A DNA stretch of 45,294 bases from Escherichia phage vB_Eco_AMO_3701M: the sequence record PQ474795.1. One strand, given 5' to 3'. The position numbers and the translations under genes are program-made. Below the pieces are notes generated by a model that was given only the letters and a program-made list of their open reading frames with translations, made no database searches and was not told where the DNA came from. Positions within the stretch are counted from its first letter, which is position 1. Every line of letters starts with the position of its first letter. Of the stretch, positions 25,925 to 38,122 are shown one piece after another.

Positions 25925-25950
25925 AAGGCCCCAAACGGGGCCTTTTCTCT
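25925..25950. terminator. bidirectional rho-independent terminator
   Basis: aaggcccc aaac ggggcctt then TTCTCT; separates tailspike from the minus-strand replication operon. Confidence 0.6.
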
Positions 25951-26086
25951 ACTCTTCCGATAACTTCTCCAGTACAAACGCCAGTTGCGCATTAGCGGCA
26001 TCTCTCTGTTGCCGTAGTCGTAGAACCTCCTCCTCAAGTTCCTTGATACGTTTTTGCAATGCCGGAATCGGTGCTATGATGTTCAT
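25949..26086 (-). CDS. small coiled-coil protein (45 aa)
   Basis: ATG with GAGGAA RBS; ATGA overlap with upstream primase gene; last gene of operon. Confidence 0.35.
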   Translation of the reverse strand: MNIIAPIPALQKRIKELEEEVLRLRQQRDAANAQLAFVLEKLSEE

Positions 26087-26600
26087 CTGGTAAATTTCCT
26101 CGCAAGATACGTTATTTCTTCTTCACAAAGTTCATCAAGGTCGTTTGACACAAATCCTCTGGTGAATGTTTTGCTGAACTTTAAGCCAGCTTTATCATTG
26201 TCGCCCGCGCACACCCAGTCATACGGCAAAAGTGACATTTGCTGCCGTAGGTCAGTTGGTATATTTGACCCCAAGTGCGCTTACGGCATTGAACCCGCAA
26301 TTCATCAAAGCAACAGCTTTAAATATGCTTTCGGTAACAAATACGGTCCCGCTTTCGCGGAAGGTATTCCAACCCCCATAAACAAGGTCTTGTTGTTCTG
26401 GTGAAGTACCGCGCGTCTTTAGGATTTTTACAGTTCTTTTCAGCATGTGGCTTGTAATGCTGGTATCCGCGAAGCCTACCATCAAACCCCCACAGGTAAA
26501 ATGTAGCTACTCCAGAGCCTAAGACTACACGTAAACGGTCAGCGTCAAAACCTCGCGACAGCAGATGCACCTTAAGTAGTAACTCCTCGCAATCCATCAT
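26083..26600 (-). CDS. Toprim-domain primase, DnaG-like (frame changes)
   Basis: Fragments 26319..26600, 26252..26485, 26083..26274 are collinear; Toprim motifs VFVTESIFKAVALM and CAGDNDKAG. Confidence 0.6.
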
Positions 26601-28023
26601 TTCTTACCTCGTCTCTTCATATAATTAAGCAATTCTTCCTGGACGGATTTCTTCTCGTCGGTACGCGCGGCGACAACCTCGTCCAGTGTGTCTTTAGCAA
26701 CGATGTGATAGAGGAACACTGGTCGCTCGTGGCCCGCCTGTTTCTGACGGACCGGGCCTATACGCTCCACGACCTGCAAATAGTGCTCAAGGTTCCAGCC
26801 TTGCGAGATGAATGCCAGATGATGCCCGCCGTCCTGTAAATTCAAACCATGCCCGGCTGACGCAGGGTGCACGCATAGGATTTCGATTTCAGCCACGGTT
26901 CCACGCTTCCATCTGCTTATTGCCCTTAGCGCCTTTGGCAAACGCCCGGGCCTGCGGGAATCGTTTAAGGATGCGCTCCAGTTCGTGCTTGAACTGATAG
27001 GCCACCAGTAACGGTCGCACCCTGCAACTCCTCGACAATGGACTCCAGCGCATCCAGTTTCGTGTCGTGCACTTTTTCCCAGTCTTTCGTGGCTTCCCCG
27101 TCCGGCCCTGACACATATACAGCACCGGATGCAATCTGTAGGCACTTAGACGTCTTCGCCGCGGCGTTAGCCGCTTCAACTTCTCCGCTCTCCAGTTCTG
27201 CAAATAGCTTCTCCTCCATATCTATGTACGCCTGACGGGCTTTCTTCGGCAGGTCGATTTCAACAGGGACGATAATCGGAGCTTCACATCCGAACCACTC
27301 GGCAGCGTCAATCGTGAGACTAATGTCCTTCATCTTCTGGTGAATTTCGTTATCCGCACCTGGGCGGGCGTGGTATTCGCGCGCCATAGCCGATTTGCCT
27401 TTCTGTACCGAGTTAAACCAGCGGTCGGTGAATGCTGTGTACGACGACCCCAGGCGCTCACCGGCGTCGATAAACCAGTTCTGACCCCACAAGTCTTTGA
27501 GGCCGTTAGGCGATGGCGTGCCCGTCAGGTTGATAAAACGCTTAACCTTACCGAACGCCACTTTACTGAGCGCCTTTGCCCTCTTGCTACCACCTGAACG
27601 GCTACGGAATGATTTAAGCTTCGTGCTTTCATCGGCAACGATAACAGTAAAAGGCCAGTCATCTTTGCCGTAGTAGTCAATCAGCCACTCGATAACTTCG
27701 TAGTTCGTACACACCACGTTAGCGTCCGACTCCAGCGCTGCGATACGGCGCTTCTCGGAACCGGTCGCATCGACGACACGCAGACAGGGAAGTTCCATTT
27801 CGTCTTGTTCTGCAGGCCACGTACCTGACGCAACACGTAAAGGGGCCAGAATTAACACTCGGTCGTCGTCATTAAGTTGCCCATTACGGAACAGGCGGTT
27901 AAGCACCCACATCGTTGACCCCGACTTGCCGCCGCCCATACCGCACCAGATATTGCAACGTGGGTGCTGTAGCATAAACGACGTCATTATTTTCTGATAT
28001 TCCCTGCGCCTAAACTTACTCAT
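26597..28023 (-). CDS. SNF2-family ATP-dependent helicase (frame change near 26965-27145)
   Basis: Walker A GMGGGKSG, motif II IVADEST, C-terminal helicase domain; two collinear fragments. Confidence 0.85.
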
Positions 28024-28516
28024 GCCTTGAACTCCCCGAAGTATATTTCCGCGGCTCTTTGGTATACGCGCGACGCTTCTTCTATAGTGTCAAAATAGCC
28101 AAGGTGGATGTATTTGTTATTGACGCCTATTCTGGCGCGCCACCTGCCAGAGGGTATTTGGTAAACCCCTATCGCGCCGCTAGTGTTATGTGATGAGCAG
28201 TCTCGGTTCTGAATCTGCTGGCTCCTGGTTGCTGGCCTTATATTATTTATGGCGTTATTAGCCCTGTTACGGTCTTTATGGTCAAGCTCACCATTATGAT
28301 ATTCTCCGTAGACGAAAGCCCATGCCAGATGGTGGGCTTTTATTCTTACACCGGAGACTGTAATAACTATGTATCCTTTGTCGTTTGGCCCTCCTGCTAC
28401 CTCCCCGCATTTCCCCCTTTTATGCTTACTTTTCGTGTAAATATACCTGTTTCGGGGTCATAGTTAAGAAGACGTTTCGCCTCCTCAATATCAGGCCTTC
28501 TTGTTAATTTGTTCAT
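28020..28516 (-). CDS. HNH homing endonuclease with AP2 domain (frame change)
   Basis: Not in ORF track; hand translation gives HNH pattern (HHLAWAFVYGEY, DHKDRN) and AP2-like segment GVYQIPSGRWRARIGVNNKYIHLGYF; ATGA overlaps at both ends. Confidence 0.7.
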
Positions 28517-35597: not shown

Positions 35598-35626
35598 TAA
35601 TTAATATGGTACTATTCACATATCAA
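35598..35626. promoter_or_regulatory. degenerate dyad (AATAT-N4-CTATT), candidate operator upstream of the XRE gene
   Basis: TTGATA hexamer on minus strand with poor -10; one mismatch to dyad; next to XRE RBS. Confidence 0.35.
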
Positions 35627-35646
35627 CTGACTAAGGAGTAATTGAC

Positions 35647-35862
35647 ATGCAACCATCTGAACTAGGCATCCGTGTAGAACAACGCCGTAAAGAACTCGGT
35701 ATCTCCCAGCGCCGTCTGGCTGTTCTGGCTGGCGTTTCCCAGGGTGCAATTAACCAGCTTGCACTTGGAGTAACTCAGGACGTCCGCCCGGCGACGCTGT
35801 TTAAACTGGCGGAAGTGCTGCAAGTAGACGCCAAGTGGCTGGCGTTTGGTGAAGGGGCTTAA
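35647..35862 (+). CDS. XRE-family (Cro/C1-type) HTH transcriptional regulator
   Basis: 71 aa; ELGISQRRLAVLAGVSQGAINQL; AAGGAG RBS; divergent from the early minus-strand operon. Confidence 0.8.
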   Translation: MQPSELGIRVEQRRKELGISQRRLAVLAGVSQGAINQLALGVTQDVRPATLFKLAEVLQVDAKWLAFGEGA

Positions 35863-35879
35863 CGCCCCTTTCTTTTTAC

Positions 35880-38122
35880 CTACTCCAAATCCTCCTCTGT
35901 CACTGTTAGCATTTCATTCGGTTCGTATATTGTCTTCGGTCTTAATCTGTCACCCATCTTTTCCGGTATCCGGTATGTGCCTGGCATAACTTCACCGTTA
36001 ACATCGCACCCGAGCATCAACTCCCCGTCTTTCAGCATCTTCTCGAGATGGTGGTTGGTGATGGCGTGGTCGCCCGAGTTCGCTACTATCTGCCGTTGGG
36101 TAAAACCTCGTCCGGTGTCGTTAGACTGTTGCAGGTCTTCCAGCGCGGCGAGTATGGATTCCTTACGTCCTCCATCCTTCCCACGTTTTACGGCATTCTT
36201 TACGTTTTCTTTACCTTCCTTTGTCAGCCCTTCTTCCCGCTCTTTCTCCTCGTCAGTCTTGAACGGCTCGAAGCCCCACGGCATCAGCACAAGCGCCTTG
36301 TGCGGCTCAGGCAGGTCCAGGTTTACAATTGTGCCGTACTCCTCTGTGCTACCCAGGAACTCAACCGCGCGGTATTCTTTCGGTGGTGGTGCTTCACGGA
36401 ACTGTACAGACTCCAGCACCATGCCAACCGTCTTCTGTTGAGGCCCATGTTTGAATTTAGAGTGGTATACGTTTATCTGACGGTCGGTAGCTCGTTCGAT
36501 TGTCAGTTCCACGTCGACGCCCGCATACAGCGCCCCACTGCCGCGTGCTTTCTTTCCCCCTTCGGTGTGTGGTGGACAACGCCTACCGCGGCTTTAGTCG
36601 CGTCACGCACTTCTTTCAGGATGGCAATGACTTTACCCATGCCTATTGCCGTCGATGAACTGTTCTCGTCGAACTTATCAATCGTCAGGGCCAGCGTCTG
36701 GTTAAGGGTATCAAACGCGACCATGCCAATAGGCTCCTCGCCTGCAGTTTCTCGCATCAGCTTAATCAGGCTTTTCAGTTTGCGCGAGACTTCACCCATG
36801 TCGATGACATGTACGTAATCTTTACCTTCCTCGCCGTATTTAGCCGCGAGCGCGTCGATACGTGTGCGTGTGGCCGCACCTCCCTCACCGTCGATATAGA
36901 AGTGATGGCAACGCTGGGTATCAGCCCCCGCAAACCGGTATCCAGCGGCGCTAAGGTACATCATCCCGAGCGTATAGAAGGATTTGTACGTACCTGATTC
37001 CCCGACGATGTCCCATATGCAATCCGACGGCATGTACCCCTCGACGACGAAATCAGCCTTTACCGGCTCCGGTAGCTCGTCCTCCTCGGAGTCCTCGTCG
37101 TCTTCCAGGTCGTCCAAGCTGCAAGAAACAGATTCACGCGCACCCCAACCGATGGCCTCTGCGACCTCACTGAACGGCAGGCCAGTCGCGTCGCACGCGT
37201 ACTTCCACACCTCTTTCGGCGACATGCCTTCGGTCGCCGTAATGTCGGTGTCGTGAATCATGGTTACGTTGGGTGCTTCATATCCCTCGCGAGGGAAGCA
37301 CAACAGGAAGTCGTCCGGGCGTGGTGTCGGGTCGCTGTAGTTTTCTGCGTGTTCCGGCGTAGCCGGCATCTTAAGGCCGCGCGGCGTCATGATGCCGCCG
37401 TACTCGAACGCCAGGGCTTCGAACGCATCTGTAAACGCGGTGCGCAGTTCTTCTGGTATCTGGTAGTCAGATGCGCTGCTAACGTCAACGGCGGGGACGC
37501 CTTCCAGTAATTCGTCCGGGTCAATCAGGTCGTTGCGGCGCGACCAGATAACGGTAGAGCCGACCGGCGGCAGGTACATCGGCTGAGACAGAGTGAACCC
37601 GCTGCGGTCAGCGCCCATGCCTTTGAAGAAATGCCCCAGCAATCCATGACGAACACGGATGATGTCGCCGCCTTCGACCGGGCGGACCAGCGGCATGACG
37701 ACGCGAAACCGCGGGGACTCATCGGTATGGGACGCCGTGGTATAGAGGCACATGGCCCGGCGGCTGCGCTTAACCCGGAGCACAGCTTCCTGGTACTCTT
37801 CCGGCGTTGCACTGTCGAAGTCCAGATACGCAAGTGACGATTTGCTTACAGACGCATCACAGCGATAAAAGAAGCCTTTACGCGCTTGCTTAAAGTCACC
37901 GGTTTCCGGGTCTTTTACGGTGCTGTGCGTTGAGTCGCACGCGGCGGTGATGTAGCCAGGCGCGGTCTTCTGGTTAATTCCGTCACGAACGGCATCGAGC
38001 GGCTGGATTAGCTCTTTCAGGTCGTCCAGTGTTGCCGTGTGTGTAGTTCTGACGTTTATATCCTTTTTCTCAGCCCGCGCGTTGCGACGAGACCACGAGT
38101 AGGATAAAATTACATCGGACAT
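35880..38122 (-). CDS. primase-polymerase (AEP) fused to RecA-like helicase, C-terminal domain in shifted frame
   Basis: AEP motifs AYLDFD and TASHT; helicase GESGTYKS and MVAFDTLNQ; 36503..38122 plus collinear 35880..36512. Confidence 0.75.

What the first reader, a model, noticed from the sequence alone, without database searches (positions are those of the whole stretch)
25949..38122. Three distinct priming/unwinding systems in one phage
The genome encodes a DnaG-like Toprim primase (26083..26600), an SNF2-family helicase (26597..28023) and a separate AEP primase-polymerase fused to a RecA-like helicase (35880..38122), together with a family-A polymerase, gp2.5-like SSB and Cas4-like exonuclease. 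This redundancy suggests either two initiation modes (for example origin priming versus restart) or a modular origin of the replication region.
Basis: partly seen in the sequence, partly recalled or inferred. Interest (0 to 1): 0.4.

Follow-up and report, generated by a model that had tools for sequence, protein, structure and literature searches.

The report
Phage replication module with two primases
This is the ordinary replication gene block of a known E. coli phage group, read from an error-filled assembly. It does carry an archaeal/eukaryotic-type primase-helicase plus a small, optional bacterial-type primase-like gene of untested function.

Summary
The window is Escherichia phage M01 (OR061069.1, Guernseyvirinae), a frameshift-riddled "partial genome".

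- **26083-26600:** a 172-aa protein, broken by two +1 insertions. Its model matches the DnaG/T7 gp4 primase core best. The Toprim acidic residues are conserved, but it has no zinc-binding or helicase-binding domain.
- **26597-28023:** an SNF2 ATPase.
- **Also confirmed:** PolA, an Enc34/gp2.5-like SSB, a DUF2800 Cas4-like nuclease and VRR-NUC.

"Three priming/unwinding systems" overcounts. The AEP-helicase is in about 400 related phage records, so it is the core primase-helicase. SNF2 is a translocase, not a shown replicative helicase. The mini-primase is accessory. It occurs in about 67 related records, always directly after the SNF2 gene. Its T5 homologue (T5.076) lies apart from T5's own primase and is deleted in the viable T5 st0 mutant.

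Having both AEP and DnaG-type domains contradicts a published "either/or" rule, which is mildly interesting. Whether the mini-primase makes primers is untested.

The parts
25949..26086 (-). 45-aa small protein, homologue of fFiEco03 gp33 and last gene of the operon. Some records label it 'SbcD exonuclease subunit', which is implausible for 45 aa.
   Evidence: tblastn 95.6% identity to gp33; annotations.
26083..26600 (-). Mini DnaG-type primase-like protein (N-terminal RNA-polymerase subdomain plus Toprim), 172 aa when two +1 insertions are removed. VTESIF (Glu) lies at 26321-26338, GDNDKAG (DxD) at 26185-26205 and DLDE at 26131-26142. It has no zinc-binding or helicase-binding domain.
26597..28023 (-). 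SNF2-family (SF2) ATPase, 474 aa in the intact relative, with two frameshifts here. It has Walker A GMGGGKS and a DEST box. Its stop codon overlaps the Toprim gene start (ATGA).
28023..28516 (-). HNH homing endonuclease (one frameshift).
   Evidence: tblastn to fFiEco03 gp36; annotations.
28735..29034 (-). VRR-NUC domain nuclease.
   Evidence: Pfam VRR_NUC, below the cut-off; annotation.
29418..31628 (-). Family A DNA polymerase with 3'-5' exonuclease domain, split into six annotated pieces in the record.
31689..32315 (-). Enc34-type (former DUF2815) ssDNA-binding protein, T7 gp2.5-like; intact.
   Evidence: Pfam PF10991 E 8e-16; 98% identity to fFiEco03 gp44; PMC5686142.
32651..33898 (-). DUF2800 / PD-(D/E)XK Cas4-like nuclease (frameshifted).
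35647..35862 (+). XRE/DicA-like repressor, divergently oriented. A 31-nt direct repeat lies upstream at 35558-35588 and 35602-35632.
35880..38122 (-). Core primase-helicase, 755 aa in the intact relative, with one frameshift near 36512-36569. The AEP domain covers about aa 1-215 (LDFD at 37814-37825, TASH at 37727-37738). A zinc-ribbon-like linker without Cys ligands follows. The AAA_25/RepA-like helicase covers aa 352-522 (36557-37069), with Walker A GESGTYKS at 36980-37003 and Walker B VAFD at 36710-36721.

Best explanation
This is the standard early/replication operon of a Guernseyvirinae (Kagunavirus-like) siphophage, read from a low-quality assembly whose frameshifts are sequencing errors.

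Shown: the conserved core is one polypeptide that joins an AEP-fold primase domain to a RepA/DnaB-like (AAA_25) helicase. Alongside it are a family A polymerase and an Enc34/gp2.5-type SSB. A recombination and fork-processing set accompanies them: a Cas4-like DUF2800 nuclease, VRR-NUC and an SNF2 translocase.

Inferred: the AEP-helicase unwinds and primes, PolA extends the primers, and the nuclease/SNF2 set serves recombination-dependent replication and fork remodelling.

The 172-aa Toprim protein is a DnaG/T7-gp4-type primase core stripped of its zinc-binding and helicase-binding domains. It is an accessory gene, carried by roughly one in seven related genomes and always placed directly after the SNF2 gene. 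Homologues occur across many T5-like and some jumbo-phage records. I infer that it is an auxiliary primase-like nucleotidyl transferase that needs a partner for template engagement, and not a second self-sufficient priming system.
For: - Identity of the window and its relatives.
- Frameshifts in nearly all long genes, including essential ones. One Toprim insertion extends a G run, and the sister phage CR01 has the gene intact.
- AEP fold and motifs. Distant homologues carry PriCT-1/2, D5_N, DUF5906, VapE, DnaB_C or AAA_25 downstream, the usual partners of AEP domains.
- AAA_25 with Walker A and B motifs.
- The AEP-helicase is present in 403 phage records.
- DnaG-type fold of the Toprim protein. 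Glu and DxD are conserved in homologues from 38 to 94% identity, and the final Asp is invariant. These motifs align to T7 gp4 VTEGEID and FDMDEAG and to the T5.121 primase.
- Accessory status: about 67 records at 60% identity or more. The gene is absent in fFiEco03, where an unrelated 61-aa ORF fills the slot.
- Conserved SNF2-then-Toprim adjacency with 1-4 nt overlap in diverged contigs.
- T5 has a canonical primase, T5.121, next to its DnaB-like D6. T5.076 lies in the tRNA region and is inside the st0 deletion.
Against: - No biochemical data exist for any of these proteins.
- AEP motif III was not identified confidently.
- The hhalign match of the Toprim family to T7 gp4 has very low probability. 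The fold search carries that argument.
- Conservation of the catalytic residues shows selection for some metal-dependent activity, not specifically primer synthesis.
- The roughly one-in-seven figure counts redundant database records, not independent lineages.
Confidence: 0.65

Rival explanations
1. One reading: three functionally redundant priming/unwinding systems give two initiation modes. The AEP-helicase primes at the origin, and Toprim primase plus SNF2 reprime and restart stalled forks.
For: Both primase-class domains keep their catalytic residues. The Toprim gene is always translationally coupled to the SNF2 gene. The module also holds fork-processing nucleases.
Against: Most relatives replicate without the Toprim gene. 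Overlapping stop and start codons are general in this operon: the unrelated gp34 overlaps SNF2 in the same way in fFiEco03. The Toprim protein lacks the zinc-binding domain that DnaG-type primases use for template-directed initiation (established knowledge for T7 gp4 and DnaG; absence shown). T5.076 is not next to an SNF2 gene and is dispensable.
Confidence: 0.15
2. The Toprim protein is not a primase. It acts as a metal-dependent nuclease or RNA-processing enzyme (as RNase M5 or archaeal DnaG do), or as a producer of short oligonucleotides used against host defence.
For: - Toprim domains also occur in nucleases, and RNase M5 Toprim appears among the weaker fold hits.
- There is no zinc-binding domain.
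- In T5 the gene sits among tRNA genes.
- In Vibrio phage F101 it sits next to a tRNA nucleotidyltransferase gene.
- It is an optional gene in a variable slot.
Against: The whole protein, including the N-terminal subdomain specific to primase RNA-polymerase cores, matches DnaG and T7 gp4 (TMq 0.55-0.65 over about 170-195 columns). RNase M5 matches only the roughly 90-100 residue Toprim half, with an E-value at least about ten times weaker. In Guernseyvirinae the gene lies inside the replication operon, and these genomes have no tRNAs. PADLOC gives only a weak generic DnaG-like hit.
Confidence: 0.15
3. The Toprim gene in M01 is a true pseudogene, a decaying accessory gene, so this phage has only one primase.
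For: Two frameshifts break the ORF in both the window and the deposited record.
Against: The same record has frameshifts in PolA (six pieces), the primase-helicase, SNF2 and the Cas4-like nuclease, which a viable isolate needs. One insertion extends a G run. Sister phage CR01 has the gene in one piece at 98.8% identity.
Confidence: 0.05

Closest known systems
T5.076 (YP_006904.1) of phage T5 and its homologues in T5-like phages (PHROG 849, labelled 'DNA primase')
   Same: About 47% identity over the full length, the same size of about 172 aa, and the same motifs. In both cases it is an extra gene beside a complete primase.
   Different: In T5 it lies in the tRNA/deletable region, not in the replication operon, and T5's main primase is DnaG-type (T5.121) rather than AEP. 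Neither protein has been characterised. The 'primase' label comes from a Toprim signature only (note).
RNA-polymerase domain of T7 gp4 primase (PDB 1nui, 1q57) and the E. coli DnaG catalytic core (1dde, 1eqn, 3b39)
   Same: N-terminal subdomain plus Toprim fold. Glu, DxD and Asp metal ligands are in equivalent motifs.
   Different: There is no zinc-binding domain, no helicase domain (as in T7) and no DnaB-binding C-terminal domain (as in DnaG). Sequence identity is only 13-23%.
AEP primase-helicase fusions of phages and mobile elements (cyanophage S-2L PrimPol, PDB 6zp9; AEP-RepA/DnaB fusions described in PMC5862659)
   Same: An AEP-fold N-terminal domain with DxD and SxH motifs, followed by a P-loop helicase in one polypeptide.
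   Different: No Pfam AEP model matches. The linker resembles a zinc ribbon but lacks the Cys ligands that distant homologues keep. About 230 aa follow the AAA_25 match (755 aa total), and that C-terminal part gave no Pfam hit.
Replication module of Enterobacter phage Enc34 and the Jersey/K1G-like phages (DUF2800 nuclease, DUF2815/Enc34 SSB, PolA, VRR-NUC, SNF2)
   Same: The same gene set and order as the annotated relatives fFiEco03 and Golestan. The SSB family was solved for Enc34 and compared with T7 gp2.5 (PMC5686142).
   Different: None of substance. M01 belongs to this group and carries the optional Toprim gene.
Rhodothermus phage RM378, the one dsDNA virus reported to encode both AEP and DnaG-type primases (PMC4889955)
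   Same: Both primase classes occur in one phage genome.
   Different: I did not analyse RM378. Here the DnaG-type protein is a truncated core and is optional within the phage group.

Membership tests
DnaG / T7 gp4-type (Toprim) primase | Toprim fold with conserved Glu, DxD and a further acidic residue | tested here: met
   E90 and D153 are invariant, and D133 and D135 are conserved in at least 90% of 19 homologues. Pfam Toprim_2 scores at its cut-off. Fold hits; motif alignment to T7 gp4 and T5.121.
DnaG / T7 gp4-type (Toprim) primase | N-terminal subdomain of the RNA-polymerase core preceding the Toprim fold | tested here: met
   Foldseek aligns about 170-195 columns, the whole protein, to DnaG cores and T7 gp4 with TMq 0.55-0.65. 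Toprim-only proteins align over only about 90-100 residues.
DnaG / T7 gp4-type (Toprim) primase | N-terminal zinc-binding domain for template recognition | tested here: not met
   The homologues used are 148-179 aa long with no CxxC pairs. The model begins directly with the RNA-polymerase subdomain.
DnaG / T7 gp4-type (Toprim) primase | Fused helicase or C-terminal helicase-binding domain | tested here: not met
   The protein ends about 20 residues after the last Toprim motif.
DnaG / T7 gp4-type (Toprim) primase | Template-dependent oligoribonucleotide synthesis | not testable with these tools
   Needs biochemistry.
Archaeo-eukaryotic primase (AEP / PrimPol) superfamily | AEP (RRM-like) catalytic fold | tested here: met
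Archaeo-eukaryotic primase (AEP / PrimPol) superfamily | Motif I (DxD) and motif II (SxH) | tested here: met
   D101 and D103 are invariant across 27 homologues down to 21% identity. S131 and H132, in the YTTASHT motif, are conserved in at least 70% of them.
Archaeo-eukaryotic primase (AEP / PrimPol) superfamily | Motif III acidic residue | tested here: inconclusive
   A candidate Asp in GADRS (aa 172) is common but not invariant. I made no residue-level superposition.
Archaeo-eukaryotic primase (AEP / PrimPol) superfamily | Match to a curated AEP sequence family | tested here: not met
   No Pfam hit even at E 10 and no NCBIfam hit. Only PHROG 3228 'replicative helicase-primase' matches.
RepA/DnaB-like (RecA-fold, AAA_25) replicative helicase | AAA_25 domain with Walker A and B motifs | tested here: met
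   PF13481 E 4.8e-18, 65.9 bits against a cut-off of 27. GESGTYKS at aa 374 and VAFD at aa 468.
RepA/DnaB-like (RecA-fold, AAA_25) replicative helicase | Hexameric 5'-3' unwinding activity | not testable with these tools
   Needs biochemistry.
SNF2 family (SF2) ATPase | SNF2-related N-lobe with motif I and a DExx box, plus a helicase C-lobe | tested here: met
   PF00176 E 6.4e-12 on the intact relative and 5.3e-9 on the window fragment, both above the cut-off. Helicase_C scores 20.0 bits, just under its 23.5 cut-off. GMGGGKS and DEST present.
SNF2 family (SF2) ATPase | Strand-separating (replicative) helicase activity | not testable with these tools
   From established knowledge, SNF2 enzymes characterised so far are dsDNA translocases or annealing helicases. 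Nothing here addresses this.

The most novel reading that the evidence does not exclude
The T5.076-like family of zinc-finger-less, 170-aa DnaG-type primase cores may be a functional second nucleotidyl transferase that phages keep in addition to a complete primase: an AEP-helicase in Guernseyvirinae and T5.121 in T5. It could work in trans with a partner for repriming or restart, or to make short RNAs under particular host conditions. That would make these phages real exceptions to the reported rule that a dsDNA virus has either an AEP or a DnaG-type primase.
Probability: 0.3. Interest if true: 0.55.

Novelty: new member of a known kind. Interest (0 to 1): 0.3.

Why it matters
For annotation, the result means the "three systems" should be read as one core AEP primase-helicase, one SNF2 remodeller and one optional truncated DnaG-type core. 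The M01 record needs re-sequencing before any gene-level claim is made from it.

The biological point is modest but real. A global survey stated that dsDNA viruses carry either an AEP or a DnaG-type primase, with one exception (PMC4889955). Here about 67 related Guernseyvirinae records carry both. The small Toprim family is also kept across many T5-like phage records, although T5 can lose it. A conserved but dispensable primase core without a template-recognition domain is a cheap target for biochemistry. It could reveal a repriming factor or a function unrelated to priming.

Tried and rejected
- Sequence searches of both proteins against PDB chains found nothing meaningful: single sequences, and a profile of the AEP domain. 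Only fold comparison resolved them.
- The search for homologous proteins returned just 3 hits for the AEP domain. The exhaustive representative search was needed to build a usable alignment.
- NCBIfam gave no family for the Toprim protein, the primase-helicase, the SSB or the nuclease.
- PADLOC gave only generic superfamily matches, so I dropped a defence or anti-defence assignment.
- Searches for 'T5.076' and for papers noting phages with both primase types found nothing. The supplement of PMC4889955 is not held.
- I looked for iterons or an origin near the primase-helicase gene. I found only two-copy short repeats, so I make no origin call.
- I considered a tRNA-related role because of the T5 and Vibrio phage contexts. 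The window has no tRNA genes.
- I considered that the window's 91% identity to its own GenBank record meant a different phage. I rejected this because length, ORF coordinates and indels are identical, and the differences are substitutions that, in the one gene checked codon by codon, fall mostly at third codon positions.

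
Full report
**Identity of the sequence.** A megablast of 25949-38122 shows the window is Escherichia phage M01 (OR061069.1). The record is 45,294 bp, labelled "partial genome", in Guernseyvirinae, with identical coordinates. More than 450 related Escherichia and Salmonella phage records share the region. The window is not letter-identical to the record. Over 24449-39622 there are 1,148 substitutions and no indels. In the primase-helicase ORF, 127 of 149 differences fall at third codon positions, and only 19 of 540 residues change. ORF coordinates are the same, so the gene content is that of M01.

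**Quality of the assembly.** The intact relative fFiEco03 (NC_073315) was used as a guide. By that guide the minus-strand operon in the window is broken repeatedly:

- PolA is annotated as six CDSs.
- SNF2 is annotated as three CDSs.
- The primase-helicase is annotated as two CDSs.
- The Cas4-like nuclease is in several pieces.
- The HNH gene is in two pieces.

A plaque-forming isolate cannot lack these genes. One of the two insertions in the Toprim gene extends a G run, and sister phage CR01 has that gene intact at 98.8% identity. I therefore treat the frameshifts as sequencing errors and analysed corrected or orthologous intact proteins.

**The Toprim candidate (26083-26600, minus strand).**

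- *Reconstruction.* Three frames join into a 172-aa protein that is colinear with the 171-aa Golestan gp32.
- *Family matches.* Pfam sees only a borderline Toprim_2 match. PHROG 849, labelled "DNA primase", matches at 9e-48.
- *Conserved residues.* Nineteen homologues of 38-94% identity were aligned. The Glu of VTE and a C-terminal Asp are invariant, and the two Asp of GDxDxAG are conserved in at least 90% of them. An N-terminal pattern, F-LW-f-G-l-GYQ-Y ... RYFT, is also conserved.
- *Fold.* An AlphaFold model of a 94%-identical homologue is very confident (pLDDT 96). Its best PDB matches are E. coli DnaG catalytic cores, the T7 gp4 primase fragment and full gp4, Twinkle and T4 gp61. These alignments cover the whole chain. 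Toprim-only proteins such as RNase M5 match only the C-terminal half, with E-values at least about ten times weaker. Viral predicted structures give the same picture.
- *Motif alignment.* hhalign pairs the family's VTESIF and GDNDKAG with T7 gp4 VTEGEID and FDMDEAG, and with the corresponding motifs of T5 primase T5.121. The T7 alignment has very low probability on its own.

The protein is only the RNA-polymerase core, however. It has no zinc-binding domain and no helicase or helicase-binding domain. From established work on T7 gp4 and DnaG, the zinc-binding domain is needed for template-directed primer initiation. Autonomous primase activity is therefore doubtful.

**The AEP-helicase (35880-38122, minus strand).**

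- *Helicase half.* The window's own 539-aa ORF has a solid AAA_25 match at residues 352-522 (E 4.8e-18). Walker A is GESGTYKS and Walker B is VAFD.
- *N-terminal domain, sequence evidence.* The first 340 residues match no Pfam or NCBIfam family and no PDB sequence, even as a profile. An exhaustive HMMER search found 105 representatives. In those, the homologous region is followed by PriCT-1/2, D5_N, DUF5906, VapE, DUF3987, DnaB_C or AAA_25. These are the usual companions of AEP domains (PMC5862659).
- *Motifs.* In a 27-sequence alignment R87, D101, D103 and R140 are invariant. The YTTASHT motif is conserved in most sequences.

Motif III remains unassigned.

**The other genes.** All of the following were confirmed on intact relatives, and mostly on window fragments as well:

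- SNF2-rel_dom, with GMGGGKS and DEST motifs
- DNA_pol_A plus a 3'-5' exonuclease domain
- Enc34_ssDNA-bd, the family whose structure was compared with T7 gp2.5 in PMC5686142
- DUF2800/PDDEXK_1
- VRR-NUC

**How the parts relate.**

- *The AEP-helicase is core.* Its N-terminal domain occurs in 403 phage records. It is more than 90% identical in Kagunavirus-like phages and about 57% identical in Jerseyvirus-like phages.
- *The Toprim gene is optional.* It is found at 60% identity or more in only about 67 records. It is missing from close relatives such as fFiEco03, where an unrelated 61-aa ORF occupies the slot.
- *Its position is fixed.* Where present, it always follows the SNF2 gene with a 1-4 nt overlap. 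This holds even in metagenomic contigs whose copy is only 53-59% identical. Such overlaps are general in this operon.
- *It occurs in other phage groups.* About 47%-identical homologues are found in many T5-like phage records, and homologues also occur in some jumbo Erwinia, Dickeya and Klebsiella phages.
- *The T5 homologue is dispensable.* T5.076 lies among tRNA genes, far from T5's DnaB-like D6 and its canonical primase T5.121. It falls inside the 8.5-kb segment missing from the viable T5 st0 deletion mutant.

In both phage groups, then, the mini-primase is an extra gene beside a complete primase, and at least in T5 it is dispensable in the laboratory.

**Interpretation.** The best reading is an ordinary Guernseyvirinae replication module with three elements:

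- one core AEP primase-helicase
- a recombination and fork-processing set, which includes SNF2
- one optional, truncated DnaG-type core that probably needs a partner to engage templates

"Three priming/unwinding systems" overcounts, and "two initiation modes" has no support.

[quoted passage not shown] The Toprim-carrying Guernseyvirinae are further exceptions at the level of domains. GenBank records of relatives already label the two genes "DNA primase" and "replicative helicase/primase". The genome papers I read mention only the helicase and the helicase-primase. I found no paper on T5.076 or on the co-occurrence.

**Verdict.** The locus is a new member of a known kind. One modestly interesting open question remains: what a conserved but dispensable DnaG-type core without a zinc finger does next to a complete primase.

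Noticed in passing
window 24449-39622 versus OR061069.1: The window differs from its own GenBank record by 1,148 substitutions and no indels. They are concentrated from 26.6 to 39 kb. In the primase-helicase ORF, the one gene checked by codon position, 127 of 149 fall at third positions. The Toprim gene and everything before about 26600 are nearly unchanged (2 differences). The pattern looks like deliberate or artificial recoding rather than a natural variant.
   Followed up: partly
window 26083-38122, minus-strand operon: The M01 assembly is full of single-base frameshifts. PolA is in six pieces, SNF2 in three, the primase-helicase in two, and the Cas4-like nuclease and HNH gene are also split. 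Sister record CR01 shows the same problem to a lesser degree.
   Followed up: partly
window 37238-37438 (primase-helicase aa about 229-295): The linker between the AEP and helicase domains is predicted as paired beta-hairpins. Distant homologues have a C-x4-H ... C-x-H-x-H-C pattern there, which looks like a zinc-binding motif. The Kagunavirus-like clade has lost all the Cys ligands (PATPEH ... MIHDTD). It appears to be a degenerate zinc ribbon.
   Followed up: partly
window 35558-35588 and 35602-35632: A 31-nt direct repeat (77% identical, 44 bp apart) lies just upstream of the divergently oriented XRE/DicA-like repressor gene (35647-35862, plus strand). These are probably operator sites in the early control region.
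   Followed up: no
L011 2495-2999 (Dickeya phage JA11); also Erwinia and Klebsiella jumbo phages: In many jumbo-phage records the homologue of the mini-primase matches in two pieces, and only the first part is annotated. This could be a recurrent frameshift, an insertion or a split gene.
   Followed up: no
L003 3986-4504 (T5.076) and L012 2396-2932 (Vibrio phage F101): In T5-like phages the mini-primase gene sits among tRNA genes. In Vibrio phage F101 it overlaps the end of a tRNA nucleotidyltransferase gene. A link to RNA metabolism cannot be excluded.
   Followed up: partly
window 25949-26086: A 45-aa ORF at the end of the operon is labelled 'exonuclease subunit SbcD' in some relatives, based on a DUF4140 fragment match. 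That label is implausible for a protein of this size.
   Followed up: no
window 28023-28516: An HNH homing endonuclease gene is inserted between the SNF2 gene and the small gp37-like ORF that precedes VRR-NUC. Golestan and one metagenomic contig instead have a DNA methyltransferase next to the SNF2 gene. This stretch of the operon is a variable slot.
   Followed up: no
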